A stretch of 64,000 nucleotides of DNA. It comes from Balanoglossus misakiensis (lineage: Eukaryota; Animalia; Hemichordata). The position numbers and the translations under genes are program-made. This document shows, piece after piece, positions 23,688-61,500 of this stretch. The notes under the pieces are model-generated. The model was given only the letters and a program-made list of their open reading frames with translations, was not told the DNA's origin and made no database searches. The stretch covers positions 8,977,677 through 9,041,676 of the forward strand of contig CM082592.2 in assembly GCA_040954595.2 (NCBI GenBank). The letters are read 5' to 3'. Numbering within the stretch: the first letter of the stretch is position 1; every line of letters starts with the position of its first letter.

Positions 23688-24689
23688 GTATACAGTTGGG
23701 GATATATTCACTAAGGGTAAAACTAATGTAAACACACACACGTACAGCTAGCTATATACTTACGATACCTAACAAATCTACGGTCACAGTGGGGATGATT
23801 GGCTTCAGATCGTCGATCGGATTAGCCCATGATGACAGACGAGGTGATCGCAAAAGGTTCACTATCCGCAACAGTTGTGAAGCGAAGTGCACACGTTAGC
23901 AATCGGCCACATAGCTTCCTGTGCGAGTTGCCATATTACCACCACCACCAACGGCCGTTCGTAAGTAGCAAAGCGATACGTTGACAGTAACAAAATAATT
24001 TAACAAATCCAGAAAAGTAGTCACCCGATGAAAGAACTTCGACGACTTTTCCGTTCAAGAGGTAGATACAAAAGTATTGCGAATCAACTGAATAATTTGC
24101 ACGATACGTACAGTATAGATTTCGACTCAAAGTTTAACAGCAACAAACACGAAGTTGGACGCCATTGAATCGCTGTACTGTACTGAACTTATTTAACCTT
24201 TGACCCGGTTGTCATCAAATCTGCATAAATTCACACCTACGTGTGAAGTACACAACAATGGCGGTGTCACAGAATGCGGGCGTCATACTCAGTACGTCTC
24301 ACACCTAGAACTTTCAACAGGTGCAAACATTTGCGCCAACTCGCGGCCCGTATACACGTACAAGTTCAACGTCTGTTCGAAGTGAAACTATTCTGAGCCT
24401 TAGTTTTCCAATGCGGCAAGTTTGCAACAGACACACAAATGTTAAACATCCTCTTCACAAAATGTAAAAGAAGTCAACATTTTCCAGCAAAATGTACAGA
24501 CGCGTTCAACTTCTTTTCCACGTTCCAATTGTTCACAAAATGACGTAAATTTTCGTCGGATACCGGATAACATACTTTCTGTTACTTGAATATCTTCGCT
24601 ATCCACAAGCTTTGGTGGTAATCCTGTCCCGACAGAGGGGAATTCTTGCTCTTTTTCTCTGGAAGTTTGAGAGAAACGGACTCTGCAGA

Positions 24690-26419: not shown

Positions 26420-29400
26420 TTATAACAGTAACGATGGCAATGGCAGTGCAGGTAAAATGGAGTCCACCAGATTCACCCAGAAATTAGCACACATGGCATG
26501 GTACTGCCGACCTCCGTACGTCAGCTTGTGACTGTCTTCGTGGCGGTCAAACGCTTTGCTCCGCGAGTCAACGTTAAGCAGACACACACCACATGCTTTG
26601 TCCGCGTTGCTGGGATCCGACTTGAGAACCGCGGCGGTAAACACAAACAGGCTATCCTCAGGCTGAAAGTAGACAAACAATGATCAAATATTAGAATTAA
26701 ATTCAGCAAGGAGTTATGTATGAATCAGTGATTGGTGTATAGTTTTGACTATTGACTACATTTCTGCATATGTACTGGTACTCACCATGAGAGGGCTGCC
26801 AGCAAGGAAAGCTGCCAAATTATTCCACAGTAGATTGGTATCTCGCAGCAGTTTCTGGAGGTCATCAGTTTCTAGACCTGTGAATAAAAGCAAAAAAGAT
26901 GTTTTGTACAGAAGCCAGACTGTAGACATATTCCAGATCTGCAAAGGCATACACCTTTGTGTTATTTTCTCTAGTATCAGCTGCTAGAAACAGTGAAAAA
27001 ATTCAACTAACCTGATGCTTTCATTGCTGTGCCCACACGGCAAGACACACGGTAAATTTCAACTAAAGCTGCAAAGAAGAAAGAAACAATATAATTATAA
27101 TGCACAAAAAAGGTCTAAAATATTCCTCTGAATACTGAATTCACAATGACACTACGATTTGGAGGTGGAAATACAAACAAGTTTGTAGAACAACATGAAA
27201 AAGAAGACTTACCTTGTAAATAACTGGAACCTTCTTCGGACTTGATTATTTCCGCACAGATAGAGGAACTGCTAACACTGTTGAACGTTTCATTGGCTTG
27301 TTTCAATGTGTGATAACAACTCTGTAGGCATCTCTGCCACTCATATGTATGCCTTTCATTGTCCTACAAATACAGATACACATGTACAACTTAGGGACCA
27401 TCTCAGAGAGTTGCACAAATTCAAGCGAAATTTGTGATCCAAATGAACTCTATAGTGAAGTGATACTGAGATGGTCACTGAAAAGGTAAGCTAAACCCAG
27501 AGCCACTGGGTCATGAGGTCACTATTTCTGGTATTGACTAAAAGGTCAATATATGCCATACGTACCTCAATGTCCCCTACCACACCGCCGTATCTGTCCC
27601 CAAATAGTGGCAGTGGTGGTCCTGTGCTGAGAGGTGGCGGTGGTCCCGTGGAAATAATCATGGCACCACTTCTACCATCTGTGAATCGAACAGGAAAGCA
27701 AAAATGTTATATGTGTATTCCCCTAGGAAAAACACTGTGGCATGGCAATGAGTTTCCCCCGCCCTGGTAAATCTCAACTGTCTATTGAGAAATGTACATA
27801 CCTAGTGGTTTAGGAGGCAGGCTGTCAACAGTGTTCATGTAAGGCTCTGTAGTGGCAGAACCCGAATACCCCATACTGTCACTCGCATCGTCATCATCCC
27901 CACTCGGCGTCGCATCAAAGCTCCTCAAATCCAAACTGGCGACCGACTCCAGTTTAGGCAGTCCCTTCTTGACAGGACCGGTATCGGGACTGGAGGAGTC
28001 CGATTCCTTGGAGTTGATCGAAATGCTGTCCGGTGTCTTGCTAGCCATGGAGCTGTTGAAATCACTTATGTTCTCATGTGACGTGTTCGATGGAGGCGAG
28101 TATCCCGGGGGATTTGGACCCAAATTGCCAAATAAATCATCGTCACCCCCGATTTGATATCTGCTCCCGCTAAAAATATCATTTCTTGTCCTGTTTTCAA
28201 CATCATTCCCGCCCTGTACAGGTGTTAAATTGCTAACATGCAAATTACCGAAATCGTCCTTCGTGTCCTCCGTGTCTCCTTGGATTTCAATTTCAGGAGT
28301 TGTTGGTTTGCCTTGTCCTATTTCTCTGAACACACTATATTTCTCCTCGGATGGGGGTGCCACACTCGGCTTTTCAAGTTCCCGAAAGATACTGTATTTA
28401 TCCTCCTCAGCTGCGGTAACTCTTTTACTTTCATTGGTTTCTTTAACAACTCCACGCGTATCGGTTTTCTCCTCAGAATCCAGATTCTCCGTTATTGTCG
28501 GGAAAAGTTCATGTTCATGTTTGTCAGATTCCTGTTTCATACCAGTCGGAGATTCATTGCTTTTCTCTGATCGAATATTTCGCACAGTACTTCCTTTCCC
28601 TTTGAACTTCTGTCCACCAAACATGGAAAGAGATTTTTCCGGCTGTTTTGGCTTCGGTTTAGAAATGCTGGTAAATAGATCGTCATCCACAACGTGAGGA
28701 GCACTGCCAAAATCCCCAAATTCATCATCGTCTTGGTCGAAGTCTGTCATAGCTGGTGGCTTTCTGCCAAATAAATCATCTTCGTCATCATGTGAGGAAA
28801 TTCTACGCGCTTCGAACTTCCTCTTGTCTTTTTTCTCAGGTTTAGGGGGCTCGAGATCAACGGGTTCCTCAGATCTGGCAGAGTCAAAAAATCCACCGGC
28901 CATTCCACCTCTGTAGTCTGCTTGCAATTTGCTTTCCGTCCCGGAATGGGTGGCGCCGTGCTGGAAGTCGGAAAAGTCATCATCTGCTGCTGGTGTACCT
29001 TTCCTAATTGCATGCACTGAAGTTGCAGGTTCATCTGGCAGTTTCGGTTCACTGAAGTCTGCAAACTGATCGCTTGTTATTGACGTGTTTTGCTGGAAGT
29101 CAGAGAAACTGTCGTCCGCGGCGTTTTGGAAATCAGCGAATTCATCCTGGTCATCAGACTTTTTGAAATCTGCAAATTCATCTTGATCATCAGACTTTTT
29201 AAAATCAGCAAACTCATCCTCGGGCTCAGGTACATCAACTGACAAAACGCGAAGGGCTGCATACTTGTCGCCGTCATCCTCAAACTTAAAGAGATCATCA
29301 CTTGATGGCTGCTTTGGAGGCTCGGCCGCCTGAAAATCAGCAAATTCGTCCTGTCCGTCATTCGGCTTCACTGCCGGAAAGCTGGCTGGAAGTGATGGCG

Positions 29401-32400
29401 GGATTGGGAGGGATATCTTCTTGGGCTGCGGGATGCTGGAAAACTGTTGGGGTTTTGGAGCTGTCTGGAAATCTGCGAACTCGTCGTCTTCGCCGTCACG
29501 CACCAGCCCAAATTTCGACGGAGTCAAGCCGGCGCCACTTACAGCAGGAAGTTTAACTTCCACTTTCTGTTTCTGTTTAGTGGCGCGCTTAGTGTCAGAC
29601 CACTTGCGTTCAAACGTTGGCGACTCGCACGGCAGTTTCATAGATTTGCCACCCAGTATACCAGGGTGCCTTATTGAGCTGGGTGAGGAAGATCCGCTGG
29701 TGGGAAGGTCGGGGAAGACATCCTGCTGTCCGACGCGGGGGAATCCCGGAAATTCCGGGTCAGTATTCTGACTGCTGGACGTTCGAGATGAAGCCCTGGA
29801 ACTCGACATACTGCTGCTGGAACAGCTGTCCACAGATTTGAAATCCGCATACTCGTCTTCGCTGGACATTGGGGGATACATGCAACCTGCAAGACCAGAT
29901 AAAACAGTGAAGTACACATGATACACAGTATGTCTATGCATAGAGTTTGAGTAGTGCTGAGCGAACTAACAATTCAGTGCATTTCAATAAAACAGAACAT
30001 AACCCCAAAACGGTAACGGAAATCACCAATAGGAATTCAATTGACAGCAACTTTGTCCCTTCACCCAAACATCAGGAACTAAAAAGAACTTTTCTGGCAG
30101 GTCAAGAAGAAACTACGAAAAATAGCCAAAAGTTACAAGGTAGGCATGACCACCTCATAAATAAACCATCTCCTGAAATAAATGAACTATACTATGATAG
30201 ACAAAAGAAGTAGCTCTCTTCACATCACACTCAAACGAACCATCACACTCCCTTCCCAAACTGTGCTTTCAAGACACATGCACGTTTACAAAACCCATAT
30301 TACAACATACATGTGCATTAACACCTTATTTTGACACACATCTAATTCAGTAACTGCGATATTTGGACATACAAACACAAACACATGGATACAGCACCTC
30401 TCCCACAAACATGAATACAGAAAACCATCATTATAATAAACAAATCCACATCCATACAAAGCAAAAGGTGTACGTAAAAACAACATCACTCATCCAAAGC
30501 ATTCATCCAGATACAAAATGTCCACATACACATGCAATGGATCACAATCAAGGCTACCATACCTATGACCACCCATCAAGTGGCAGCATGGCTGACTTAC
30601 AACGCATAAACTTGTTTTCAAGTACATTTCAGGTATGTAAATGTACACGATGTGTCGCAACAGACTGGCGCAGCAAATTTTTGGAAAATCAGTCTTTATA
30701 CTGATTGTGTGATTGAAGCTTTATTTGCAGAACAGTAGCACTGTCTGTATGTTGCATGGCTGATTGTCATGGTTATAGATGGGAAGATCAGGAGGAAATT
30801 ATTGCAGTTTTTAGTTTGACCTTAGGACATGCATTATCTGATAGAACTATAAACCACACAGAAAAAGGAATTTTTCATATTGGAGATACTTGGGGGCTTG
30901 AGATTAATCAGATTGACTAATTTGTAAACAACATTCACATTTAGTGAAACACAACTTGTTAGGTAGGTCATAGGTCAAGGTAGGTCAAAGATCAAACATG
31001 ACGAGAAACGTAATGATGAAAAGGAAACATGCAACAGACCTGATGGAATAGAGTTATTGGAACATGTGTCTTGATCTGAGGCCATGTGAAATGCCGAAAA
31101 CTTATCCAATATATCGATGCCACCTGCAGAGCCTATACTGCTGGCAGAGTGGGTCGGGGATGGGGTGGCCATCTCCTCCGTAGTTTCCGCGGCGGCAGCC
31201 TCAGCGGCGGCCGAGAAAGAGTACTGAGGTGGAGCGGGAGGCGGGGGAGGAGGAGGAGGAGGTAGGAGAATGAAACCAGATGATGATATTGACGATGAAG
31301 ATGATGATGATGGCGGTAATGATTGAGGTGGTGGTGGTGGTTGTTGTTGGGGCAGAGATCTTGCCAGACTCGGCTCTGCAGTGTTTGTAAGACCTGCAAT
31401 TTACCAGATTAGCACCACGTTGAGATGTGTGGACGTACATACACCACGGGTGGCGTGTACTCATTCTGTAAAGTAGATATTTTAAGTCACACGAAATTAT
31501 GCTGTAAGAGTGGGTGGGGATGGCATCATTTCATTTCAGTGGGTATATTATAACTAATAAAATGTTTGATCTTGCACATTTAAGACACAGAACAAACAAC
31601 AGTAAAAGGCGCATTGACCACATGCAGAAGATCCTTAAAAGATGAACACAAAGCAGAGGGGTTGATGTATGCAAAATTTGGTAGTCTGACTCAACTGACT
31701 GGTAAATTACAATACAGTCATGCAGCACACTGGCCCAAACAACCTGCACAGCAGTCAAATACAGGGACAATGGTTCGCACGGTTGGCACACTCAGTCACA
31801 AATGTATCTGTACTTTAACACATCAACTGATGACATAGTTCTCAAAAACTCAGCAGCCATAATACCAGCCACAACAAAAAAATGTGCACAGACGCAAATA
31901 CTGAAAATCTACAGCCATTGCAAGCACAACATCAAAGCACATGTACTACACAAAAATGCAAAACCGATGAGCATTATCTTTCTATGTCCTTGCTAGCCTC
32001 AAAAGTGAACTCTATCCAGAACCCCTGCAGTGTGAGGATCATACAATGCATTAACCCTTTCACCGCTGATGGGCAGCTAACTCATCTAGTGCCTGTATTA
32101 TGAATAACACACAACTACAACAAGTGGTCTTCCAACTAGAAAGAAACAAAACTGACTGCAATACCTGTTGTTGGTGGCGGCTGGGCTTCTTGAAACGGAG
32201 CGAAGTCATCGTTGGCCACAGGGGGTGCCTCGATAGGAGTCTTTGCAACTGGTGTTGCGGGTGTGACAGTGCCACTAGAAGGCGCACTGGCCGGTGTGCT
32301 AGGAGTGGATCCCCCTGGCGGTGTCAGCACTGGGGCAGGCGGATGTGGCAGCTTGTACAGGGCCTCTAGTGTGACATTCTGGGTTTGACCACTCTGAAAT

Positions 32401-35400
32401 GAGGTGAACTTCATATTATCAGTCAAAATTCAAAACAGTTAATAAGAAAGATACGAGATTATGACTAATACTGCCACCGACAACTAGAGTAGACTAAATG
32501 TTTGTATGCAAGTCAACAGGCAGTGTATGATTGATATTTACCTGTGCAATAGCAATCAGTGCTAGTGCCATGAACATTTCCTCTTTGGTGAGAACACCTG
32601 GGATTGTCTTGTTACACATGGCCCAGATGTGACCTAACACAGGTCTGTCCAATCCCGATAGCACTAATATAGGATACAGTAATTCAGTCTCGATTTTGCC
32701 ATTGCGAAACGTGGCCTCCAGGACGTGTTTGTAAACTATGGGAAGATTGGCTTCATTGTGGCACCTGCAGGGATAAACAGACAAATTGATATCAAGAACT
32801 CACTGTAAATATTCCTCCTGTTGTAGAGGCAATAACATTGTCTGATATCCAAAGATATTTTCCTTTCCTATACCAAGATCTGGTGAAAGTCTGTTTTCAT
32901 GTTTTAATGACTCCACTTACCAAGGAGGGGGAGTAAAAGTTGAAGGACTGCCCTGACCACTAGATGGCAGTGTTGACGGAGGAGTCACCTGACCGTGAAC
33001 TGTACTGGGATTGGGCGCAGAGGTGTTCACACTCAGAGGTTGTTGTACATTCTGTGCCTCTGGAGTGACATTTTCTTGTGGCGTCGGCATCTTGAATAAG
33101 TCAGATATGTTTTCTCTGTTCATGTCCCACTGTATTGACTTTGAGCTCTCTGAAAGACAAACATGTCATCAGCACATTCACTTGCAAGATTGAAGCAGTT
33201 TACCAAATCCCAAATGTTCTGCAAAGTTAGCTACTCCCAATGGTGACAATTGTACCTGTAAATGAGGTAGTCTGTATTTTTGTGCTTTGTCCGTGTGCCT
33301 CGCTTAATGTTGTCTTCTGTTTGAAGGTCTTCTTGGCTTTTTGTGGTCCTGCCAAGTCTGTGATTGACTCTAACATCATTGACTCCAGGTCTGCAAAACA
33401 AGAAGGCAAATCCTCAGTCCATGTTCAAACCCACACATTAAAAGAAAGGTGTTTTTTTCAATAGAATTGTTGTTTAATAACAAAACAAAACCACTCACTC
33501 TGTTTTTCCTCAACTTTTGGAGTTTGTTTGGTGGCAGGTGAAGGTGCCAGAGTCTGTTTGGTGTCAGCTGGTACAAGCGTCTGTCCTGTCGACACAGCAG
33601 GTGTTGTTGTCTGGAGTGAAGTCACCGCTGCATTGGCATTCACCATAGGAGTTGGTCCTGCCATGAAGTCTCCAAACCCATCATCATCATTCACTGGTGC
33701 TGATGGAACTGTTGCTGCTGGCTGTGCAACTTCTACACAACAGGGAAGAGGAAAATGAATTCTCACATGACTACATTCTTTTGTCACGTGACTGAACAAT
33801 GTCACGTACATGCAATGTTTAGACTGTGTATCAAATGTCTTCTCCTATATGTACACACAAATCCTTGTCTGCACCAGCACCCATTTGAAAACCAGCTTTC
33901 GCCAACAGCAAAACTCACCCTGTTTCATGGGAGCAGGCGTCTTGCTAGCATTCATGGCAGGACCACTTGTCGTCTTCTTGTTCTTACCACTGCCAAACAT
34001 TCCCATCATGCTCTCCAGAGATGACACATTACTGGGACCCCAAGTGGCAACACTGCCGGGCTGACTGAGGGCTTTCAGTTTCATCTGCTGCTCCTGAAAG
34101 TATCTTTCTTTTTTGAATTTTTCAAAACTTTTTTTCTGCTCCTCGGTCATGTTCTGTGGCTGCATTTGTACTGGCCTGTCAGGTAAAATTAAGAACAAAA
34201 TCAGAGTTAGAAAATGTTTCTGGAAGTGATAACAAAGGCAAACTATCTTTACTTTCTATCAACAGAAATGAAAATGCTTCGGATCCAGAAAATATTAAAC
34301 AGCATAGTAAGTGTCATAAAAGACTTCAATGTTGATGCAAACTATTTTAAGTTGACTGTAATTGTTCCTTTAATAGAGGACTGTATATTATAAACAAATC
34401 AGAGCAGAAAGACTTACATTTGGTTCATTGGCATGTTGAAGTTTTGTTGACCATACGCTGCTGCTACTTGTGAGTACGGAGGTGGCTGAAATTGTGGCAT
34501 TGGTTGATTTGGGGGCATGTAATAACCCTGTAGTGAATCAAAACTTGGTGTTAGAGTATGTACTGTGTTTAAAGTGATAAGATAGGCTGTCAACACACTT
34601 TGGTTAAACGAGATTCTGTGCAATATAAATCCTCTTCATTAGTATTATTTGTATTACACAACCTACCTGCGGGTGCATTTGAGGGGGCATCATCTGCTGC
34701 TGATTGAAGCCGGTATGATGAACTTGAGGTTGTGGCATGGGCATCATGCCACCCGTGGGGGCCATCATCATGTTGCTCTGTGCCGGTGGCATGCCTGGTC
34801 GCGGCTGTTGAGCGTAGGCGTTCCCTACTGGCATCATGGGAAGCCGACCATGGCCAACGACATTCATACCTGGCATTCAACATGTACATATGAAGTTTTA
34901 ATTAATTTGATGATCTTCCACGTCTTAGGCAAATTTCAAAATTACCAGAAATTCCAAAACTGTTAAAGAATACCTACCAGGTTGGCCTGGTCCTGACATT
35001 GGCGGCCTGAAATCGTAACAAAAGACAAAATGGTACATTTATTCAAATTCAGTAAAATAATAAGTCATTTAAAATCACAGTGAGTTAGGGAATTGACTTT
35101 ACTTGCGTTGAAGAAAATCACACTTTTGTGAGTTGACAGCATGGTATTAGTCATGTTGCATATATGTGAAGGGCGTTAGGGAGAAGCTTAAATGCCAATA
35201 CTATGAACACTATACTTTATAGGCTAAATATCCGAAATGTGGAATTTTTGTGTGTAAATATATGTTTTACCAACGTGTATCACCCTGCACAGTGGACAGT
35301 GTAGTGGTGAAATATGTGTGTTTAGAGTAAACAGAGACACATTGCTGGAATCTGGCGAGGTAATACTTGTTTTCATGTTCCACCACACAAGGTGCATAAT

Positions 35401-36522
35401 TCCTATGCAGGTGAAGTAAAATTGTATTCACATGTTTTTTTTGTGGAGTTTTGTGCAGTGAAAAAGATTATAAAAAATATTATCATTTATTTTCCATTTA
35501 ACTCTGAGGAACGTACTCATCAATCAAATCAAATCTATGTGTACATAGGCTAAGAGTAACATGTAGAATTATGAATGAAAACCCAACTGCTTACAGCTTC
35601 CCTCTTAAAGCTTCGCAAGTGGCTTAGCATTTGGATTGAAATCTTAAATTATTGTGTGCTACATAGAAGACATATAATAAGTATTAACAAGAGATTAAGA
35701 AGAGATTGTCAGCTATTTATAAAGTGATGGGTATGACTGGATATGTTGTTGCGGTGATACGACACACTCCAGACTTCACAATGACTCCCTACCTCCCCCT
35801 GTGGAAGGTGGACCGATCTTCACGATACGGATTCCGTCTTCCTCCTCTATCAAGACTGCTTGTTGAAAATTGTGAAAACAATTTATAACACCCATTTTAA
35901 CATCTGAAGTGTTACTCTTACCCCTGTTCTCTTTGATTTGTCTGCTTGACTTTATTTCATAAGTTAATGGTTATTTTAGACCACATGTAATATTATGCAG
36001 TTTGGTCGTCCATGGGTATTTTTCCACAAGTTAATTAATGTAGCATTATAACATTAGTTTGTGTTGAAAACAACAGGAAATTAGGTCTTATATGTGATAT
36101 AGACATGATGTCTAGATCACATATAAGAACTCATTTCCTCCGTCACTGGAGTGACCGGCAATGTATGACATGACACTTACAAAATGTTTACAAGGCACTT
36201 TAAAAGTTGCTAAAGAATGTATGATGGATTTGACTTCCAACTTTGAGATCAGCATCAGTTTGTAGACGATCGCCTACGTCACTCGTCGAGTCGGTGAGTT
36301 GTAACGTGGATGGATGCGCCGCGACCGTCGTTCATTCGGTACGCGGACTCGTCATCGACACGCCCTTCTCTCGTTTTATCATTCTAAACATTCGTTCGAC
36401 CCGACGTGTGCCATTTGCTTATGTATCATATGTATTTCACAATACGCGTTGAAAAAAACACAATATTCACAGATTTTTCAGTAAAAAATTGACGAACGGA
36501 AGACTACTTACCTGTACGCCAT
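26420..36522 (-). CDS. SYNRG: Synergin gamma (AP-1 gamma-ear-binding, EH-domain protein), complete, 17 coding exons
   Basis: Exons 36512-36522, 34978-35006, 34667-34869, 34418-34527, 33919-34175, 33499-33732, 33256-33390, 32921-33149, 32542-32764, 32165-32393, 31040-31393, 27802-29886, 27566-27678, 27213-27363, 27012-27068, 26786-26877 and 26420-26662 join in phase. Protein has a Met/Pro/Gln-rich N-terminus (MAYRPP), an EH domain (LYPILVLSGLDRPVLGHIWAMCNKTIPGVLTKEEMFMALALIAIAQ), many [DE]FxDF motifs, and the C-terminal ACGVCLLNVD...LTYGGRQYHAMCANFWVNLVD. An upstream in-frame ATG lies at 36555. Confidence 0.92.
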
Positions 36523-36995: not shown

Positions 36996-37676
36996 GGTAA
37001 ATTGATCATCTTATATGACTTGATATCAAGCGGTTAAATGTCTATAGTGTGTGTGGATAGGGACGCGGAAATCGACACATTGAGATCCCAGCCTCAGTTG
37101 GCCTTGATGGGCAAGCAAAGTTATACGTTGTCGTTATCGATCGAAAAGGGATCTGTGGTTTGTCAAGCCTCTTGGCTTTCCCATGTACTGAATTGTTTGT
37201 GAATATCCGATCTGTACCTCGGTTATTCACACTCGTCCATCCACTCACCGACACGAACACACTGGGGAAGGCCAGGGAAGCTGTGTACGTGCTACAGATT
37301 GGAACCACAGACAAAGAGAATTGTAGCATTGGTGGTGGGCTGGTGGACTGATCAGTTTTAATGGAATCATCTGGAAAGTATTACATTTCCCACACTGATG
37401 CCTGCATAGAAGGATGCTTATTGGTACAAACAGAAAGTTATTAAGTTTATCAATCAATAGTTATCACAACACATAAACAAACAAACAAATAAATAAATAA
37501 AAAGAGATCAGATTAAAAGAAATAATTCCAAAGTGGACCCATTATAAGTAAAATCAACTGAACTGTCAAGTAAATTAGGCTTAACATTTTTTTTTTTAAA
37601 AGACAAATTTGGAAACAAACAAAATCCTGATGAGGGTCACATTACTGTCCAGCTTGGTATACCGGTAACTACAAAA

Positions 37677-37803
37677 TTTACTCAGAATTAAGCAAGTCAC
37701 TATACTGTATGTATTGTATCAATACAGTATGCATCTTTTACTCAGAAAACCTGATGAGTCACTGTACTGTATTGTATGTATTGTATCAATACAGTATTCA
37801 TCT
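37677..37803. repeat. Imperfect ~60-bp tandem duplication
   Basis: tttactcagaa...agtcact.tactgta...tgtattgtatcaatacagtat.catct occurs twice in tandem. Confidence 0.75.
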
Positions 37804-38552
37804 ACGTATATTGTAATGAGAATGTTTGTGCTGTGTGCAAAGTCGTCGAAGGTTGTGCAGTGTGCAAAACACTTGTTTAAAAATAAATTGCAGTGCATTA
37901 CAATATCATTTGACCAGATGTTGAAAGTCCCTGCCTACATTGTCCATTACATCCTTCCATGAATGTACTTCAACCTGTACGGATCTGATTATATAAGCAG
38001 CTACTTTGACACAAGTGTAGTACACGAGTAATAAAAAAGAGGACGGTACATTGTTCCGGACTGCAGGTACTGTGTACATAAAGCGAGAAATGTTGTGTTT
38101 TACCAAAATATCTGGCTACACACCAGCGAATATAGCCTACATGTATAGATACACTATTGTCGCACTTTTGTGTTGTTATAAATGACAAGCTTTCACAAGT
38201 TGGAGGCAACTCTAAGTGTTCGCTTAAAAATGTGTCACACCCTATTCCCAGTGCATGGTAATTACTATAACTCATTACGTAATAACCATCCTTTTCACTG
38301 TGGAAATGCCTTTCTCTTATTCAGTGTGTTTGTAAGAGGATTCTACAATTAGAATACATGTACTATATCTTCACTTGAAGGGATCACCTGCTCCAGCAAG
38401 TGCAATGGATATGGTACAGATATTGGCACGGATGTTAACAATGACTTTCTATTTTTTCCACACAGGCAACATCGTCAGTCCATTCAAACACGGTCGGTAT
38501 TTGAAGACAGTGAACAGTTTGCGCACAAGTCATCCAGAAGGATCGCGTAGAA

Positions 38553-41500
38553 ATGGCTGCAAGATCTTACAGCAGTTTGGTCAACCTCAGCGATGACTCC
38601 GGGGACGAGGGCGGCCGTCAGCCTCGAGACTCCTGCTGCTCTGCACGGAACGACAAGAAAGAGTGTCCCCGGAGCTGCTGTGATGGTCCGGACAAGGGAC
38701 CTGGCAAGTGTAAGGCCAAACCGTGCTGTGAAAGCAAAGGGTGTGACGTGACGACACCGTTGTGTGACACTGGAGATGATGGTGATGGTGATCATGGTGA
38801 AAGTGATAGTGATGACGATGATGGTGGTGGTGGTGATGACGATGATGATGATGATGAAAAAGAAAATGGTGATTCTTGCGTAGATGATTGCTGCTCCAAA
38901 ACCGAGCAACCACAGCAACAATCCGAAGAGTCTTGCTGCAGCAGTCCAAAGAAGACGTGCACAGCATCTCCGACAGATACTAACAACACCAATGGCTGCT
39001 GTGGTTCTGAAAGTACAGGCAGTTGCTGCTCTAAGCCTTCAGAAAGTCCAGCAATGAAGAGCACACCCTGCTGTGCAGAGAACGGCAACATGGGAGAAAG
39101 TTGCAGCTCTGATGATGCCAAAGGAGATGCCTGCTGTGCCGAGAAACAGGAAGACAAAGCCGATTCATGTTGCAGAAAATCTACTGGGGAAGATGACGCA
39201 GTTGCTCAGAAAGAGCCCAAGACATGCTGTTCCAAAAGCTCCAGCAAAGAAAATGCTGCTTCTGATTCTGGAGATGCCTGCAAGTCAGCAGAACAACCAG
39301 CCGCCGGTTCCTGCTGTTCAAAATCAAAGAAGCCTGCCCTGCCTACAACAGAGGAAACACCTTGTAGGAGTTCTGCCAATAAATGTTCTGAAGGTGAAGT
39401 AACTCCTTGCGGTTCCGAGAAAGGTGATGGTAAAGATGATTGCAGCAGTGGTACTGCAGGCTGCTGCGCCAAAGAGAGTTCCTGCGAGAAACCAGTGGAC
39501 CCCTGTTGTGCGGATCCCACAAAGAAGTGTTCAGGCCCAGCAACAGAAGCAAAATCTCCCTGTTCGAAAAGCAAAGAAGCTCTTTCCGGCGCCGGCGATT
39601 GTTGCGCCAACGGCAGCACTTGTCAGAAACCGGCTGATCCCTGCTGTTCGGGTCCGTCCGCAAAAGCCAAGCCCTGCTCCAAAAGTTCTGCCGGCCCCAG
39701 CAAAAAGGAGAGCTGGGCCGTTTTCAGCAAGCGTGACGACGACGTCACCATGTCTCTGTTGCCGGGCGCTGACGAAAAGTCCACGGTGGTGAAGGTGACG
39801 ATGACGGTGACTGGAATGACTTGCGTGTCTTGTGTGACAACGCTGGAGAAACAGCTGATGAAACAAACAGGTGAGAAACTTAGAATGTATCATGGGAGAT
39901 CCCCTTGCAGCTCGACTATTTTGACCCTTCCAACTCTCTTGACATGACTTGTGAATAAAATCACGCCGGTCTTCTCAATCTGACAAATTCTGTTTTTTTG
40001 TGGATAAATTGCTGTTTGTGTTTCAATAATAATGTAAATTTGTTCCCATGTAGGTGTCGTTGAAGTGTTAGTGGCATTGATGGCACAGAAAGCTGAAGTT
40101 CGTTACGACACCTCCATCATCAAGATTGAGAAAATTACGTCTCTAATCACCAGCCTGGGATTCAAAGCAGAAGTACATGAGAATGCTGATGGATTGACAA
40201 TTCTGGAGCTTTTAGTGAGTTGGGTGTTTTTGTCTTTCTTCTTCTATGGTGCAATCGAATTTGACCAAAGATAGAGGGAAAATGTATTTTAGTGAAGTGT
40301 GTCATATTAGACTAATTTTGGAATAGAAACTACACAATGCATGAAATTAGTGACTTGAATGAAAGCCTGTGTTTGTTCTGACATGTCTGTGAACATAAAA
40401 CATCAGTTGCATTGTGAATATGCATGGCAGACATATCAAAGGTCTTTTGTTTGCACACATATGTACATAGATCTTTCTTGTTCAGTTGGAAATGTCTAGA
40501 ACAAAATTGCTGCCTCATATTAAACATGTTTTCATTATTATTTTTTTCTGTTAGAAACGGGCGAGGTTTTTCGTGGAGTGTCTTTTATACCTGAACAAAA
40601 ACTTAGCTGCCCCTGCTAAGAGACATATGTACAAACAAATATTTTTTGTTGTTGTAGATTTCAGGTATGACCTGTTCTTCCTGTGTAAGCCTTATTGAGG
40701 GCGTTGTTTTGAAATTAAAGGGCGTTGACTATGCATCCGTTTCCTTGTCAACCAGCAAGGGAGTATTCAAATATGACAACAGTCTCACAGGACCAAGAGA
40801 TATAATAAAATCCATTGAGGTTAGTATGGCATTGTGTATCATTCCTAAGCCCAAATGTAACTAATTTGTTGAGTTGCTAATTTGACCTCAAATATCTGAA
40901 GAGGAGGATGGAATATGTCACACACACAAAACTGCAGATTTTAATTCTGTCTTTTTTCTCACATTTCGTGACATTTTGATGACTAGGATGCTGGTTTCAG
41001 TGCAGATATTGCCACTGGTGGTTTGCAGAAGTCTTTGAAAGTTATTCGACAAGAAGAAGCAATAAAACAGTGAGTACATGTTCAATATCAACTACATTCA
41101 CAGCTTGTACGTCAAAGAACAAGCATGGTGACCATTGTATTTTATTACAGATTTTCATTATACTCACAAAGGAGAATCCACAATTAACAGAATTGACCAC
41201 ATCCTTATTTTTTCTTCATTTTGATTTCCTTACGTACAGGTGGCGCAATTCTTTCTTCTTCTCTCTGATCTTCGGTGTGCCGGCATTTCTCATCATGTTG
41301 TATTTTATCATCTCTGGCAATGAATTGATGATCTGTCCCGGCCTGTCCTTGGAGAACCTTCTGCTCTTCCTGCTGGCGACTCCCGTGCAGGTACGAGAAT
41401 GGAATCTCCACTACTTCATTGATCCAACCTTTTCTTTTAGCGAGATACAGTGATTAGTCACTTTCCGAAATCGGCAAAATACAATGTAGTTGTGTAGCAG

Positions 41501-42211
41501 TGGGAGCTACAGTGTCACCGGCGCTAATTTCACTCTATCTCGTCCTTATTACAGTTTCTGAGTGGCTGGAACTTCTATGTCCGTGCCTACCAAGGACTGA
41601 AACACAGAACGGCCAACATGGATCTGTTGGTCTCCATGTCAACCACAACTGCCTATGTGTACTCTGTTGTTGTACTGTTTGTTGCCATAGGAATGATGAC
41701 ACCAACAAGTCCAAAGACATTTTTCGACTCGCCACCACTATTATTTTTGTTCATTTCTCTGGGGAGGTGGCTCGAATATATCGCAAAGGTATGGATATTA
41801 TTCCTTTTTGTTTGTACCTCAGTGTCATAGCAGTATACTATGAATTTGATATACACAGATCTTGTTGTTCCATATTAACCACATCTGGTAGTGTGTAAAT
41901 GTGTGCCTTTTTCTCTGCTATGCCGCAATCCAGGGCAAAACATCGGATGCACTTGCGAGGTTGATATCCCTGCAAGCCACAGACGCGACTCTGGTCGTTC
42001 TCGGGGAAGACAATGAGATCATGTCCGAGGAGCAGATCGATATTGATTTGGTACAGCGAGGTGACACACTTAAAGTTGTACCCGGTGGCAAAGTGCCAGT
42101 GGATGGACGCGTCCTTGTGGGTACAACCATGGCAGATGAGTCGTTGATTACGGGCGAGTCATTACCGGTGTTGAAAGAACCAGGTATGTAAATTAAACAG
42201 GAATGACATAT

Positions 42212-42243
<32 letters not shown>

Positions 42244-45200
42244 CCTCTCTCTCTCTCTCTGTTTCTTCCCATTAAATCTGTCACCAGCTCCGTGGAACAA
42301 ATGAGCAGGATTTCAAAAATAGTTTTGGCCACAAAGTGAAACTACCGGTACCTGCATATTCCAAAATTTCACAGTGTGTAGTGAAAATACATTCTCCTTT
42401 TGGCTATGTTTTACCAAAAAACGACAATGATATACTGTTTCATGTTCCGATACGCTAGAAACAGTCATGATGTGAAGTAGAATATCATCTCTCCTATCAC
42501 TGATTTTTCCGTTTGAAATTTTCTAGGTAGTGTAGTAATCGGCGGCTCAATAAATGGCAAAGGCGCAATTCTTATTGAAGCCACCAATGTCGGCCCAGAC
42601 AGTGCCTTATCGCAGATTGTGAGTCTGGTTGAAGCTGCCCAGACATCCAAGGTAAAAACAAAAATTGCATTGTTTGCAAAGAAAACAGAAGGCCATTGTC
42701 TGAGTCAAAGGGATTGTACAGTACTTTGTGCCAATTGCCTTGAAAAAAAAGATTGTTTGCTTTAATATATTGCTGTACTTGAAGGCTCATAGCAGTGAAA
42801 CACTGCAGATTTTCTATTATCGGGAGATAGAAGTTGTTTGGAATATCGTCAGATATGTTACTTCATTACTAAATGTACATCTAGTTACGATGATTTCTTT
42901 TTTTTTTTGCTTCTTAGGCACCAATCCAGAGAATAGCTGATAAGATTGCTGGGATATTTGTACCGATGGTGTTAGTGTTGTCTCTGACCACTCTGGTTGT
43001 GTGGCTCATCATTGGATACGTAGACGTGAGTCTGGTCCCGCACCGAGGGGAGGTCAGTGTAGTAGTGAAATTACAAGCAAACATACATAAAATGTACATA
43101 TATACCAAGCAATGGAATCTCTCACATTGTTATCTTTGTGCTTCTTTTATAAAATATCTCATCTGAATTGTGACAGAGCTCTGTCCAGAGGTCAGTAGAC
43201 ATAAAAGTGCAGTGGTAGTTTGATAGATATCCGTCTGTCACCATAGAAACATGTCCTCTCAACTTTTTTTGTCTTCAGACTGAAGCCATGGGGAAAGAGG
43301 AGATTGTCTTGTCTTTTGCCTTCTCGTGTGCTGTGGCAGTCATGGTCATCGCGTGCGCATGCGGTCTCGGGTTGGCTACCCCTACAGCAGTAATGGTTGG
43401 TACCGGCCTGGGTGCCCAAAATGGCATCTTGATACGGGGAGGGGAACCGTTGGAGACGGCCCATAAGGTAGGTTTTAAATGATGTCTTTAATTTATCTCG
43501 TTAGTGAATTGGCGGCAATCAACGTAGCGTTATCAGCCAATTTCATGGTCTGTAGGTGAACTTGCACAGCTATTTTGTGTGATCTCTGGTAAAATGGTTC
43601 CATTCGTCTGATTGGCAGGTGAAAACAGTGGTGTTTGATAAGACTGGAACCATCACCCATGGTGTTCCCAAAGTGGTTCGGGTCGTGACGTTCAAACTGA
43701 TCGAGTTCACCGAAGAACGTATCCTGGCCATCGCCGGCACTGCAGAAGCCGACAGCGAACACCCTATCGGTATGGCCATAGTCACGGCCGCAAAAGAGGT
43801 AATGAAATCAGGGAAACTGTTGCCCAATTCTCTGCGTAAAGAGAGTCAAATGTCAAGTATACTGATACCAGCTTGAAATTTGGGCATCTTTCATCAGATT
43901 CTCAATATTGTCTGTTGTGCCACATTCTTTTTAAAATCCTGTGTACTTAAGTATTACCACAGCATGGTGGTACTCAATTACTAATTTTATTTTTTCTGGC
44001 ATGTCCCAGGCGTTTGGAGTTGACATTCTTGGCAAATGTGACGACTTTCAGTCAGAGCCCGGATACGGATTACAGTGTACAGTGAGCGGAATCGAAAAAC
44101 TGGGCAGTGAAGTGGAAAATACGCTTGAAGACCATGGAGAGGATGGAAACGGTGAAGTAAAAAGTCAAACGAATGGTGAGTGACATACAAGTTGATTTTC
44201 TTTTCCTCCTTCCGACACTCAGCAGTTCAAAAGTCACACCTACACTCAGACTACACTATTCATGTCCATGAAACCCCCTTTTTTATTCCTTCCATTGCAA
44301 AGAGCCCTACAATGTGTTGATAGGCAACAGAAATTGGATGAAAAACAATGGTTTGAAGGTGACTGACCTAGCTGACCACGCTATGACCATCCAGGAGCGC
44401 AAGGGTCAAACATCTGTATTGGTGGCAGTCAATGGTAAGGTCACATGGCAATTTTTTCAATGCTCTCGATGTATGTACCAGTAGTATTATTTTAAATACA
44501 AAACAGGATATGTAAATTGGATGCTATAAAAAGTAACTTATTTTTTATCACAGCCAAATTTAGCTGACTTTTAGTACCCAGTCAATATGTCCTTTTTTAT
44601 GTTTAACACCATTTAATAGTTCGAAAGATGTTGAATGAATGCTATTCACACAAGGTATTGAAGTTTGACTGAAAGCGTATCAATATCTGTAGAGCGTATT
44701 AATTAACACAGTTTGTAGAATTTTCACTGAACTATTTTCCTCTTGCTTTCCTGTTTGAATTGGCAGGCGAGGTTGTCGGAATGATAGCTGTGGCCGACAC
44801 GATAAAACCCGAGGCCTTTCATGCCATTGGACACTTGAAACACCTGGGTTTACGTGTGGTGTTGTTGACAGGTGATAACCGCAGGACAGCCCATGCCATT
44901 GCTGAACAGGTACGGCCATTCTGTGATGTAAAAGAGGTTTTGATTGGCTGAAATGATGGCATGTCTCAATTCAGTGTAGTTGATCAGCCAATCATCAGAG
45001 AGAACTGAATGTGTTAAGGATGTATATGTAAAGCTCAGCAAAACAAGTGGCCTGTGGTTTTCCAGTGCAAAAGTATTTCTCACATTGGTTCTCCTTTACA
45101 GGCCGGCATAGATGAAGTCTTCGCAGAGGTCTTGCCATCACATAAACTTGACAAGATCAAAGAGCTTCAGCAAGATCACCCAGTTGCCATGGTAGGGGAC

Positions 45201-46111
45201 GGGGTCAACGACTCGCCAGCCCTTGCCCAGGCGGACGTGGGCATCGCCATAGGAACAGGAACTGACGTCGCTGTGGACGCCGCTGATATTGTCCTCATCA
45301 GGGTAAGTTGTCTGGTCACCGTAGTAACCCTTTGTTTGAAAATCAATTATTACGAACCGTGTCCATGTCATAAATTGTGCTGTCTTCATTTCATCTTACA
45401 GAGTGACCTGTGGGATGTGGCAGCAGCCATCGACTTATCTCATTATATTGTTCGACGAATCAGGATCAATTTCTTTCTAGCTGTGGCCTATAATTTCTCT
45501 GCAATACCAATTGCAGCTGGTGAGTATAATAACAAAGACACACAACATTGTTTTCCTGCACAGTGAAGTAAGTTGCATACAGTGTCACGCACACATTCAG
45601 GTACTCTACCAGTCTTGGACTGTTGGAATAATTTTCTACTTTGTGCTTTCAGGTGTATTGGCTCCAGTTGGAATCTATTTACAGCCATGGATGGCTGCCG
45701 TGGCGGAAGCCTTCTCAACTTGTGCTGTCATCCTTTCATCTTTACTGTTGAAACTGTAAGTTCTTCCTGAGGATCCCTCTTGAGAAGTGGTTTAATGTGT
45801 GACATCATCGAGAACTAACTTATTTGAATGAAACTGAAGCTGTCAGATGCATTTTTTCAAATAACTGTTGAAGTTTTTAAAGCGAAAGAAGTTGAAGTCA
45901 CAGGATTGTTTGATATAGCGCCACCTTGTGGCACTGAATTGGGTTTACATGTATTTTGTTTTCTTTTGGCCTACAGCAAACAACCTCATAATCCTTATTT
46001 TCAATCTCATTCAGGTACAAGAAACCGAACTATTCTGAAATAAAGAAGGAGAAACGTGCAGGACAGTACAAGTCTATAAAGGGTGATGAGGAGCTTGGCG
46101 ATATGAAGTAG
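38553..46111 (+). CDS. ATP7: ATP7-like P1B-type heavy-metal-transporting ATPase with Cys-rich N-terminus and two HMA domains (~1315 aa, 18 coding exons)
   Basis: Exons 38553-39870, 40054-40214, 40658-40819, 40987-41069, 41240-41390, 41555-41788, 41934-42183, 42527-42651, 42918-43052, 43279-43467, 43619-43798, 44010-44175, 44303-44434, 44767-44909, 45102-45302, 45402-45519, 45653-45755 and 46015-46111 (3948 nt) join in phase. Motifs: [73 protein letters not shown]. Likely a divergent paralog rather than the canonical Cu pump. Confidence 0.93.
42223..42260. repeat. (CT)n microsatellite in an ATP7-like intron
   Basis: ctctctctct... with one ccc interruption. Confidence 0.9.
45918..45932 (-). 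promoter_or_regulatory. CTCF-like site in the last intron of the ATP7-like gene
   Basis: gcgccaccttgtggc; reverse complement GCCACAAGGTGGCGC. Confidence 0.45.
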
Positions 46112-58500: not shown

Positions 58501-61500
58501 TGTCGGAATTGTGAGCGGCCTACAACCGGACATTTTCTACCAGAGTTGATTTCTGTTTTGATTCAAACGGAATTTAAGTCCAGAATTGATTTGACTTGAC
58601 TAGTTCACAAACCGCAATGTTCACAGCACAGGCTATATACAGACAAGTAGAATACCGCGCATTTGAACAAAGTAAGGAGTTCTATGGTAGAGTGAGACTG
58701 TTCCAAACTGTCAGTTTCCAATCTCCAGTTCGACTGCATTGGCTAGTAACGTACCAAACTTAATTGGCGTAACATATATCAAGCTATAACTTAGCTTGGT
58801 ATATCAGTGAATCTTGATACCGAACAAATCAATCCATCCATATACCGAAATTCAATCGTCACTGACATTTACAATGTTTTTATCTTCAATGTTTGGCTCG
58901 ACTTTTGCAATTATCGGTGAATTATTGATGTGCGCACCATGATTTACCCTGGATATTTTGTTTGTATTTCCTGAAATGGAGGAGTTTGATATTTCAGCAT
59001 TTTCTATCTCACTCTGCTCCACTGAAAGTTCAGACTTTAACTACGGTACTCTTGAATTATTGATGTGGACTGAAAATTCTGTTTCCTGGAAACTTCCCAC
59101 AGAAAGTAGAAAGCACTCAGAGCGAGAATCTGGAAGATGGTTTTATACCCAGTGATGATTTTCACATATACACCCAACAAACACAATTTCTGGTACACAC
59201 CAGAAATGACATCATCACAACGCAGGATGCCAGTGGAGTCATGGCAACCAACACAACAGAATAACACAAGCAACGTCATAAAATGGTGACTTCATGAAAT
59301 ATAAAAAAAAAATGCCCCCCAAAATCAGCCAGCATACCTCCAGGCCCTCCCTAAACTCATCATAGGACACACTCATGCTGCCATCTTTGTCAAATTTATT
59401 GAAGAAATCCACCAATCGGAGGTTGTTCTTCTGGATGTACTTCTGTAGTTTCTGCATGGGGTTCACTTTGGGCTTCTTCTTCTTTTCTTCCTCGGAGCCG
59501 CCATGTCTGACTTTCAGCTCCGGCCTGGCTTCCTTCAGTTCCTTGTAGAGGTCCTCAAAGTCCTTGTTTACTTGGATATCCTGAAGGATTTCAACAAGAA
59601 ATCTTACATTTTTTCCCCAATTTTTAACGACGTAAAATTATTTCACTTGGACAGTTGGCAGAGAAAAGAAGGGGGACATTTGTGAACAGAACTTACTGAG
59701 AAATCCAATTCTTCTATTGCTGTGTTGGCGTTCTCTTTGACCGCCTTGATGACAGCGTAGCAGCCTGCTGTCTGCATGGGATTTTTTCCTAACTGTTTGG
59801 AGAGAAAAATTGGGATCTTGTATGAATGACGGAATTGGGGGGAGGGGGGTTTGAAACAACATGCTATTAAATCACCCAGGGAGCTCAATGCGGGTACAAT
59901 AACAGTCACTAGTCAAGTGTTAAAGGAACATATGTTTCTCTGTAGTTTTGATCAACAGCTTCAATAAAACTGATACAGGCTTACCTTAAGTACTTTTAAC
60001 GTTTCATTGACATACAACCCTTTGGCCAGAAGGACAGCTCCTTCCGGAGAAATACGGTTATTCCTGCAAATTTGAAATATATCAGTATTGCTCAATTAGC
60101 CCCAGAATTGGCCATTATATTTCGACTGACCCCATTATCACTAATTTTTATTCTCAATTTGTAAAAATATTCGGTAGTTGTATTGAGCAAAATATTAGAA
60201 AAAATTTAAGACTGATTTTTGCGGCGCACACGTTCTCAAAAATAGCAAAATCATAACCACCCCAGGGGCATTAGAAACAGCCAAGAAGATAATCTTCTTA
60301 CGTGAGATCCAGTTCTTCTAGGGAACTATTGGCTTTAAGCGCCTCACCCATGGCCATGGCTCCTTCGTTACCTAAGCCATTCCACGAGAGATCGACTTTC
60401 CTCAAACCGATGTTACTCTACAGAGTGTCAGAAAAACGGTGGTTAATGCAGGTGTGTGTGTGTGTGTGAGTGCAGACACAAAAATGGCTCTCTTTCACAG
60501 GTGGGTCACGATTGCCATTTTTATCTTGTTTTTCATAGCTCACACAACAACTAGTTGCCTGAACTACTAACATTTGGGGAGGGGGAGCTTTGTTGGGCTA
60601 ACAACAGGAACATTTTCCAGGCCAGTTGTAGATTCAGAGACACCAATACGTTCATTCACCTCCAAATTTGTGCCTTCAATCTAGATGAACGAGATAGATT
60701 GCGGCTGATTTATTCCCATGTGTTCATATTACCACACATTATCCATGTGTATGAAGGATGAATGACACCAAGTGACCCCCACAAACTTATCAATTTGACA
60801 AAAGAAACAAAATTGATGAAAGAATCGTGATAACTGCAATAATATGTCTAGCCATCTCTACATAAGGATTTATTTTCAGGTATCAATATAATTGCCCCGT
60901 GGACAACTGCTGTGTACGATAATTGCCTCCTGGACAGAGAGACCCAACTGTGATACCATTAATAGACAATTGATGTATCATGCCCTCAAAGAGCAAGGTC
61001 ACTGACACTGCCACTGCATTGGTCGTTCCCAAGAGGAAATCTGTAATTTGCCAGATGTCAACTTTTCATGGCGTTTTCCCTGTATGTACTTTGAACAGAA
61101 AACTGCACTGAAGGTGTAAATTTGAAACCACTATCAGTGATAATGTAGAATTGTGAATAATCAAGGAAAAGTAAACCCCCACCCCCCACCCACCCCGTAG
61201 CAATGAGCTGGTTACCAGCTGTGTAAGAGCAACTATACATGTGGGAACTTGTGCACATTTTTTGCAGGGTTAATTCACATAAAATCTTCGACTTGTTGTG
61301 TCATTAGTAAAAGATAAGGGAGTGAAGTGCTGATCTGGCTGTGGACCTTTTTTTTTCGTGATATTTTCCGTCGAAAGCGAGAATCTAGAGCGCGCACTTG
61401 GATCAGAAAGCGACACTCAGAAAAAAAGGGGGGGAGGTCCTGCTTGTGAAAAGGAAATGAACACAGAACAGTGCAGTTGTACACACAGCAGGTGCAGAGC

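What the first reader, a model, noticed from the sequence alone, without database searches (positions are those of the whole stretch)
38553..46111. Animal ATP7 paralog that looks re-tuned from Cu(I) to another metal (candidate Cd/Zn detoxification pump)
Seen: an intact 18-exon P1B-ATPase with ATP7-type sequence and all catalytic motifs (TGES, DKTGT, SEHP, TGDN, GDGVND). It carries three departures together: a ~380-aa Cys-Cys-rich N-terminus with only two HMA domains, CAC instead of CPC, and EAFST instead of MxxSS in the last helix. Established: characterised animal P1B-ATPases are ATP7-type Cu(I) pumps (CPC, YN, MxxxS). Cys-Cys-rich tails occur on Cd/Zn pumps in other kingdoms (yeast Pca1 N-terminus, Arabidopsis HMA4 C-terminus). 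Inference: a duplicated ATP7 has converged on a divalent heavy-metal exporter or sequestration pump with its own chelator/sensor domain. I know of no description of this in animals but cannot check the literature.
Basis: partly seen in the sequence, partly recalled or inferred. Interest (0 to 1): 0.9.

Follow-up and report, generated by a model that had tools for sequence, protein, structure and literature searches.

The report
Acorn-worm copper pump with zinc-type site
An intact gene, likely from an acorn worm, encodes an extra copy of the animal copper pump ATP7 in which a copper-binding methionine is replaced by an acidic residue at the position where bacterial zinc/cadmium pumps have theirs, a change shared with two named acorn-worm species, so it likely exports cadmium, zinc or a similar toxic metal, which would be unusual because animals are thought to have only copper pumps in this family.

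Summary
Observation confirmed. The gene has 18 GT-AG exons and encodes 1315 aa with all catalytic motifs, a 408-aa tail with 16 Cys-Cys pairs, two HMA domains, CAC for CPC and Glu1268 for the M6 Met. The changes are not private: orthologues in Ptychodera flava and Glandiceps talaboti carry CAC, Glu and the CC tail, and both species also keep canonical ATP7 paralogues. The three form a 100/100 clade inside ambulacrarian ATP7. Glu1268 aligns with ATP7B Met1359 and with the ZntA zinc ligand Asp714. Shared changes hit 14 of 127 conserved membrane positions but 2 of 167 cytosolic ones (p=3e-4). Allelic differences in core exons are 9 synonymous, 0 non-synonymous. Best reading (0.55): an active pump re-tuned to a Cys2-carboxylate site for Cd/Zn/Pb/Hg-type ions. 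Against: the copper entry residues and YN are kept, ZntA's Lys counter-ion is absent, and no expression or activity data exist. It is not a P1B-2 member. No paper describing it was found in 10 searches, and the scan had not noted it on other DNA.

The parts
38553..46111 (+). ATP7-family P1B-ATPase gene ('ATP7-X'), 18 coding exons, 1315 aa. Exons: 38553-39870, 40054-40214, 40658-40819, 40987-41069, 41240-41390, 41555-41788, 41934-42183, 42527-42651, 42918-43052, 43279-43467, 43619-43798, 44010-44175, 44303-44434, 44767-44909, 45102-45302, 45402-45519, 45653-45755, 46015-46111
   Evidence: GT-AG, open frame; 78% identity over 907 columns from HMA1 onward to P. flava P0016
38553..39776 (+). Cys-Cys-rich, acidic N-terminal tail (aa 1-408; 49 Cys, 16 CC pairs, 1 His, 3 aromatics), predicted unstructured; likely metal buffer or sensor
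   Evidence: single-sequence AlphaFold pLDDT 38; no Pfam or NCBIfam family; same character in P0016 (17 CC) and P0017 (12 CC)
39813..39833 (+). HMA domain 1 metal motif GMTCVSC (aa 421-427)
40664..40684 (+). HMA domain 2 metal motif GMTCSSC (aa 496-502)
41738..41740 (+). Leu687 in M2, replacing the release-path Met (ATP7B M769, rice HMA4 M391)
   Evidence: role of M391 from PMC10973460 passages
42150..42161 (+). TGES actuator motif (aa 776-779)
43354..43365 (+). M4 motif C899-A900-C901-G902 (canonical CPC[A/S])
   Evidence: Pro in 47 of 47 canonical animal rows, Ala in 3 of 3 ATP7-X
43637..43651 (+). DKTGT phosphorylation motif (aa 943-947)
43754..43765 (+). SEHP nucleotide-domain motif (aa 982-985)
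44868..44879 (+). TGDN motif (aa 1130-1133)
45195..45212 (+). GDGVND hinge motif (aa 1175-1180)
45489..45494 (+). M5 YN motif (aa 1240-1241), retained; N1241 is at the register of ZntA Lys693
45706..45720 (+). M6 E1268-A-F-S-T1272; E1268 = ATP7B M1359 = rice HMA4 M941 = LpCopA M717 = ZntA D714
   Evidence: Met in 47 of 47 canonical animal rows

Best explanation
This is an intact, conserved acorn-worm paralogue of the ATP7 copper pump whose membrane site has Cys-Ala-Cys plus Glu in place of Cys-Pro-Cys plus Met, and it likely works as an ATP-driven detoxifying exporter of divalent thiophilic ions (Cd2+ most likely, also Zn2+, Pb2+, Hg2+). Shown: intact catalytic domains, the substitutions, their conservation in three species and their clustering in the membrane helices. 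Inferred mechanism: metal arriving on thiols or on the two HMA domains passes Met647 to Cys899/Cys901; occlusion completes a 2S + carboxylate site with Glu1268, the ligand set that ZntA builds from Cys392, Cys394 and Asp714; phosphorylation of Asp943 opens the site to the outside or to a vesicle lumen. Two methionines of the soft Cu(I) release path (M2 and M6) are gone. Ala900, Gly902 and Ala1244 would reshape M4/M5 to fit the longer Glu or a larger ion. The disordered CC tail would buffer metal and possibly control stability or targeting, as the tails of yeast Pca1 and plant HMA4 do. Canonical paralogues would keep the copper-delivery job.
For: Glu1268 aligns to E. coli ZntA D714 and CopA M813 and to ATP7B M1359, HMA4 M941, LpCopA M717. 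The Cu(I) high-affinity site is proposed to be CPC cysteines plus that Met (PMC10973460 passages); ZntA binds Zn, Cd, Pb, Hg with two Cys plus the M6 Asp (PMC10246665 passages). Among 226 fetched proteins, 2 of 238 M4 motifs were CAC and 2 of 181 M6 motifs had Glu, the same two proteins, both with CC tails. Shared changes: 14 of 127 conserved membrane positions versus 2 of 167 cytosolic (Fisher p=3.2e-4); six control groups of canonical pumps changed 0, 5, 1, 3, 1 and 0 membrane positions. Allelic differences: 9 synonymous and 0 non-synonymous in exons 13-17, 7 and 1 in the HMA region, and no Cys lost in the tail. Canonical paralogues: P0123 and P0037 in P. flava, P0124 in G. talaboti. Cys-rich or di-Cys tails are Cd/Zn sensors in Pca1 and HMA4 (PMC10654040 passages).
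Against: No activity or expression data. The copper entry residues (M647, D648, E699, D836), YN, S1271 and M1263 are all retained, and the HMA motifs are of the ordinary GMTCxxC type. The Lys counter-ion of P1B-2 pumps is absent (N1241 at K693), and the acid is Glu, not Asp. CAC occurs sporadically in prokaryotic CopA-like pumps that keep the Met (6 of 8 readable records), so it is no sign of a new cargo. Pca1's Cys-rich tail also binds copper. The AlphaFold model of the P. flava orthologue draws M4 as one unbroken helix with pLDDT 63 at the motif (no canonical control), which could mean an impaired site. Only three sequences support the clade, and the allele counts come from one sample.
Confidence: 0.55

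Rival explanations
1. It is still a Cu(I)/Ag(I) pump, re-tuned in affinity or speed, for example a dedicated copper-detoxifying exporter with a copper-buffering tail.
For: It nests in ATP7; keeps the entry Met/Asp/Glu, YN, both Cys and two CxxC domains; scores higher on the copper model TIGR01511 (589 bits) than on the cadmium model TIGR01512 (366 bits), tested on the orthologues; Cys-rich tails bind Cu; CAC appears in CopA-like pumps.
Against: The M6 Met is invariant in 47 of 47 canonical animal rows and YN/MxxSS substitutions impair Cu binding in AfCopA (PMC9433437 passages). A carboxylate is a poor Cu(I) ligand (established coordination chemistry). The M2 release Met is lost too. The canonical paralogue P0123 scores similarly on both HMM models (625 and 375 bits), so those scores reflect ancestry, not cargo.
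Confidence: 0.25
2. It is a poor or non-transporting pump retained as a metal sensor or buffer (the tail does the work), or it moves another thiophilic cargo such as As(III)/Sb(III).
For: Loss of a proline present in 47 of 47 canonical rows; unbroken M4 in the model; a very large chelating tail; eukaryotic P1B pumps have been discussed as transceptors (PMC10654040 passages). Vicinal Cys pairs bind As(III) (recalled, no call).
Against: 165 of 167 conserved cytosolic positions are not among the shared changes, and all catalytic motifs are intact; the second M4 proline (P908) is kept; the changes are the same specific residues in three species rather than drift.
Confidence: 0.15
3. The oddities are assembly errors or decay of a redundant copy.
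For: The window has no RNA support in the tools used; only three members were found.
Against: The same CAC, Glu and CC tail are in two independently sequenced species; contigs confirm the codons; the frame is open over 18 exons; core allelic differences are 9 of 9 synonymous.
Confidence: 0.03

Closest known systems
ATP7A/ATP7B and invertebrate ATP7 (P1B-1 Cu(I)-ATPases; PDB 7xuk, 7si3)
   Same: Ancestry, fold (top Foldseek hits), catalytic motifs, last two HMA domains, entry Met, YN, first Ser of MxxSS; 53-59% identity to canonical animal pumps from HMA1 onward.
   Different: CAC for CPC, Glu for the M6 Met, Leu for the M2 Met, 14 shared membrane changes, a 330-510-aa CC-rich tail in place of the further HMA domains, no C-terminal acidic dileucine.
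ZntA/CadA (P1B-2 Zn/Cd/Pb/Hg-ATPases; PDB 4umv)
   Same: Predicted ligand set: two M4 cysteines plus a carboxylate at the D714 position.
   Different: Different lineage (27% identity of the P. flava model to 4umv); Glu not Asp; Asn instead of Lys693; no CPC proline; YN kept.
Fungal Pca1/PcaA cadmium pumps
   Same: Cadmium pump first described as a putative copper-transporter gene (title of Shiraishi 2000 seen in a reference list) with a Cys-rich N-terminus (8.2% Cys in PcaA; 12% here). I recall that Pca1 also has Glu at the M6 Met position; I could not verify this with any tool.
   Different: PcaA has CPC and one HMA domain. The tail search found no homologue and the core nests in animal ATP7, so any likeness is convergent.
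Arabidopsis HMA2/HMA4 (plant P1B-2)
   Same: Tail built of Cys-Cys pairs (13 in HMA4, binding at least 10 Zn).
   Different: Tail is C-terminal and ends in a His stretch; the core is a true P1B-2.
Bacterial P1B-7 (CSC) and P1B-6 (SCA) subclasses
   Same: M4 motif without the central proline.
   Different: Different motif letters, prokaryotic, cargo unknown; this protein groups with animal ATP7.

Membership tests
P1B-type ATPase | TGE, DKTGT, HP, GDGxND motifs and MA/MB/M1-M6 architecture | tested here: met
   TIGR01525 637 bits versus cut-off 346 for the orthologue; fold matches ATP7B
ATP7 lineage (by descent) | Nests among animal ATP7 sequences | tested here: met
   inside a 100/99 ambulacrarian clade with the 16 diagnostic columns removed
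P1B-1 (Cu+/Ag+) subclass | CPC in M4 | tested here: not met
   C899-A900-C901
P1B-1 (Cu+/Ag+) subclass | YN in M5 (Nx6YNx4P) | tested here: met
   N1233, Y1240, N1241; signature from PMC5924815 passages
P1B-1 (Cu+/Ag+) subclass | MxxSS in M6 | tested here: not met
   E1268-A-F-S-T
P1B-1 (Cu+/Ag+) subclass | Cu+-stimulated ATPase activity and transport | not testable with these tools
   needs biochemistry
P1B-2 (Zn/Cd/Pb) subclass | Asp in M6 (ZntA D714) | tested here: inconclusive
   acidic residue at that column, but Glu rather than Asp
P1B-2 (Zn/Cd/Pb) subclass | Lys in M5 (ZntA K693) | tested here: not met
   Asn1241 at that register, counted from the conserved Asn
P1B-2 (Zn/Cd/Pb) subclass | CPC in M4 and descent from the P1B-2 clade | tested here: not met
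   CAC; nests in ATP7; ZntA itself was left out of the trees
Pca1/PcaA-type Cd pump | Cys-rich N-terminal domain before the HMA domain | tested here: met
   12% Cys over 408 aa; no sequence homology detected to any protein of 712-2030 aa (weak test)
Pca1/PcaA-type Cd pump | Orthology to fungal Pca1 and its M6 residue | not tested
   no Pca1 sequence could be obtained
Pca1/PcaA-type Cd pump | Cd-masked degron in the tail | not testable with these tools
   needs cell experiments
P1B-7 | CSC in M4 | tested here: not met
   CAC; motif definition from PMC13460109 passages

The most novel reading that the evidence does not exclude
Acorn worms have turned a duplicate of ATP7 into the first dedicated divalent heavy-metal (Cd/Zn/Pb/Hg) P-type pump known in animals, by convergently rebuilding the ZntA-type Cys2-carboxylate site inside a copper-pump scaffold and adding a Pca1/HMA4-like di-cysteine sensor tail; its 14 membrane changes are a natural map of what switches a P1B pump from Cu(I) to divalent ions.
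Probability: 0.5. Interest if true: 0.85.

Novelty: new variant of a known kind. Interest (0 to 1): 0.72.

Why it matters
Reviews state that animals have only P1B-1 copper pumps and that zinc-type P1B pumps are absent from animals (PMC10654040, PMC3355532). A native animal paralogue with a ZntA-like ligand set would be an exception reached by convergence rather than gene transfer. It also makes an old question directly testable: which residues decide Cu(I) versus Zn/Cd selectivity in P1B pumps, and whether the M6 Met, the CPC proline and the Lys counter-ion are really required. ATP7-X sits about 56% identical to canonical paralogues of the same animals, so a short list of swaps can be tested in a human-like scaffold that is relevant to Wilson and Menkes disease residues (M769, M1359 of ATP7B are altered here). 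It may also explain how sediment-eating acorn worms cope with toxic metals (inference).

Tried and rejected
No genome is held for the window, so a canonical ATP7 in this individual could not be sought; tblastn finds no second ATP7 in the 64-kb window. No RNA holder listed. The tail found no homologue among 5315 candidates, no Atlas hit, no Pfam or NCBIfam family, and gave an unusable single-sequence model (pLDDT 38), so it is not filed as a metallothionein domain. The M6 exon against 1.84 billion representatives returned 6 hits, only the Glandiceps orthologue with Glu; this 33-aa query is insensitive. No Saccoglossus or echinoderm CAC/Glu protein appeared among the 120 rows listed in each (only the top 120 of about 7,800-8,000 hits are shown), so the range outside the three species is open. 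Co-occurrence of CAC and Glu in prokaryotes was tested and not found: 9 genome and 14 metagenome pattern matches, 9 in ORFs with DKTGT, 8 with a readable M6, of which 6 have Met and 2 (one protein seen twice) have Gln; the pattern covers only one narrow spelling of the motif. A lysosomal targeting argument from YxxPhi motifs was dropped as weak: all three tails have one, but so do many canonical pumps. Metal-response elements are not enriched (34 matches in the window, 43.8 expected). HMA count was rejected as a diagnostic. The first tree run timed out and was repeated with fewer rows and a simpler model. The Pca1 M6 residue could not be checked: two papers not held and the alignment rows in the PMC3922081 supplement were cut. 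PMC7578549, PMC4613667, PMC7746681 and PMC5447758 (passages) had nothing on a CAC or Met-to-Glu pump. The alignment made was not used.
Full report
Observation. The window holds an intact gene at 38553-46111 on the + strand. Joining 18 exons at GT-AG boundaries gives 1315 aa without an internal stop. An in-frame stop lies just upstream of the ATG (the open frame starts at 38514), and the start resembles that of the P. flava orthologue. All catalytic motifs are present. The three departures are as described: a 408-aa tail with 49 Cys and 16 CC pairs (0 of 20,000 shuffles reach 16) ahead of two HMA domains, C899-A900-C901 in M4, and E1268-A-F-S-T in M6. Contigs from two runs of one sample cover both sites without a change in those codons; this sample may be the source of the window, so it is a check on assembly, not independent support.

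What it is. Exon 10 as a query returned two proteins at 86-87% identity, from Ptychodera flava (P0016, XP_070572961.1) and Glandiceps talaboti (P0017, XP_077995940.1); the next best were at most 79%. Both have CAC, Glu at the same M6 position and CC-rich tails with 17 and 12 pairs. Of the 226 proteins fetched by then, only these two show CAC (2 of 238 motifs) or Glu (2 of 181). The window protein is 78% identical to P0016 and 68% to P0017 from HMA1 onward, so the animal is likely an acorn worm nearer to Ptychodera. Both named species also carry a canonical paralogue (P0123, P0124; CPC, YN, MALSS) on a contig of the same length as their CAC gene, with nearby accession numbers, which suggests linkage (inference). 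P. flava has a third, nine-HMA ATP7 (P0037). In trees built without the 16 diagnostic columns (38 rows; 21 rows; rows chosen by me from the 226, ZntA left out, LG+G4), the three form a 100/100 clade inside a 100/99 clade of acorn-worm and echinoderm ATP7. Grouping them with P0037 is rejected (p-AU 0.0003); grouping them only with P0123/P0124 is weakly rejected (0.034), so the duplication dates either to the ambulacrarian stem or to hemichordates with a long-branch effect.

Signs of re-tuning rather than decay. Of 294 columns conserved in at least 90% of 47 canonical animal pumps, 254 are identical in all three and 16 are changed in all three. Fourteen of the 16 lie in the membrane domain (14 of 127 versus 2 of 167 cytosolic; Fisher p=3.2e-4), whereas six control groups of canonical pumps changed 0-5 membrane positions. 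Differences between the window and a second haplotype-like contig are 9 synonymous and 0 non-synonymous in exons 13-17 (all 13 differences seen), 7 and 1 in the HMA region, and 11 and 10 in the tail with no Cys lost and one gained (from the 40 of 171 differences that one search printed). The tail therefore drifts but keeps its cysteines.

Mechanism. Glu1268 aligns with ATP7B Met1359, rice HMA4 Met941 and LpCopA Met717, and with E. coli ZntA Asp714. The Cu(I) high-affinity site is proposed to be the two CPC cysteines and that Met, with release along Met391 (M2) and Met941 (PMC10973460, passages; PMC9433437, passages). The M2 Met is Leu687 in all three. ZntA-type pumps bind Zn, Cd, Pb and Hg with the same two cysteines and the M6 Asp, with Lys693 as a built-in counter-ion (PMC10246665, passages). 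The simplest reading is a Cys2-carboxylate site in a copper-pump body, hence a divalent thiophilic cargo (inferred). The tail resembles in composition the Cys-rich Cd sensor of yeast Pca1 and the 13 Cys pairs of Arabidopsis HMA4 (PMC10654040, passages; PMC5909057, passages), with no detectable homology and no predicted fold. I put Cd first because Cys-only tails with almost no His favour soft ions (inference).

Results against this reading. The copper entry residues M647, D648, E699 and D836, the YN pair, S1271 and M1263 are kept, and Asn stands where ZntA has Lys693. CAC by itself occurs in scattered prokaryotic pumps that keep the Met (6 of 8 readable records; none with Glu). Pca1's tail confers copper resistance by binding copper. 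A model of the P. flava core (742 aa, 40-row alignment, pLDDT 80) matches ATP7B best but draws M4 as an unbroken helix at low confidence (63) where solved pumps are unwound; with no canonical control this may be an artefact, a changed geometry or an impaired site. Canonical ATP7B and worm CUA-1 already contribute to cadmium tolerance by trafficking and sequestration (bioRxiv 10.64898/2026.05.16.725294, abstract and outline only), which lowers the surprise of a link to cadmium but does not describe a changed transport site. There are no expression data.

Comparison and novelty. By descent it is an ATP7; by motif it fails two of the three P1B-1 membrane signatures (signatures from PMC5924815, passages) and also fails P1B-2 (no Lys, no CPC, wrong lineage) and P1B-7 (CSC; PMC13460109, passages). 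It should be filed as an ATP7 variant that likely works like ZntA or Pca1, not as a member of either. Reviews say animals have only P1B-1 pumps and that Zn pumps were not identified in animals (PMC3355532, passages); one survey saw a P1B-2 in Nematostella and judged it transfer or contamination, and its data set had no Saccoglossus entry (PMC3922081, passages and supplement search). Ten literature searches (listings and abstract starts) showed no paper on a hemichordate ATP7 paralogue or on a CAC/Glu pump; none of the 20 listed papers held the word hemichordate. The library lacks most subscription journals, including the primary Pca1 papers and the Smith 2014 classification, and the supplement rows that hold Pca1 were cut. 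My recollection that Pca1 has Glu at the same M6 position comes from no call and is unverified. RefSeq names both orthologues simply as copper-transporting. Earlier scan notes held no report of this gene type.

Verdict. A real, conserved, apparently undescribed variant of ATP7 in acorn worms with a rebuilt membrane metal site. Divalent heavy-metal exporter 0.55, altered Cu/Ag pump 0.25, sensor or other cargo 0.15, artefact or decay 0.03. Interest 0.72.

Noticed in passing
window 27782-29965 and about 33458-36522, - strand: A multi-exon gene lies head-to-head with the pump gene. One 727-codon open frame holds 7 [DE]F[AGS]DF motifs of the AP-1 gamma-ear-binding type; synergin-gamma/aftiphilin-like by recall, no Pfam hit. 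A candidate start with a splice donor is at 36522-36512, so the two genes may share a promoter.
   Followed up: partly
window 38466: A good splice acceptor lies 87 bases upstream of the ATG, so the pump gene likely has an upstream non-coding exon; a possible donor is near 36997.
   Followed up: no
window 22713-23747, - strand: 344-codon coiled-coil-like open frame with no Pfam match.
   Followed up: partly
window 59239-59637, - strand: Exon with an EF-hand (PF13405).
   Followed up: partly
window about 41120-41180 (intron 4): Short high-copy repeat: summed contig depth 5287 and 8298 in this bin against about 50-150 elsewhere, with many loose ends.
   Followed up: no
window 37700-37800: Two copies of a short AT-rich, partly palindromic element upstream of the gene (seen).
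   Followed up: no
proteins P0092, P0118, P0136, P0137: Crinoid and sea-cucumber-like ATP7 proteins have FN instead of the M5 YN motif (4 of 47 canonical rows).
   Followed up: no
proteins P0037, P0123, P0016: Ptychodera flava has at least three ATP7-family genes, one with nine HMA motifs.
   Followed up: partly
protein P0017: In the Glandiceps orthologue the second HMA motif has drifted from GMTC to a DIIC form while keeping CxxC, and the tail has an 18-residue repeat.
   Followed up: no
L007:2601-2629 and L016:2601-2629: A Dehalococcoidia P1B-ATPase without HMA domain has CAC, YN and Gln at the M6 Met position followed by Pro-Asp, an unusual ligand set.
   Followed up: no
L018, L021, L022: Three metagenome records of a P1B-like frame end in a stop shortly after a CAC motif, possibly a frameshifted copy.
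   Followed up: no
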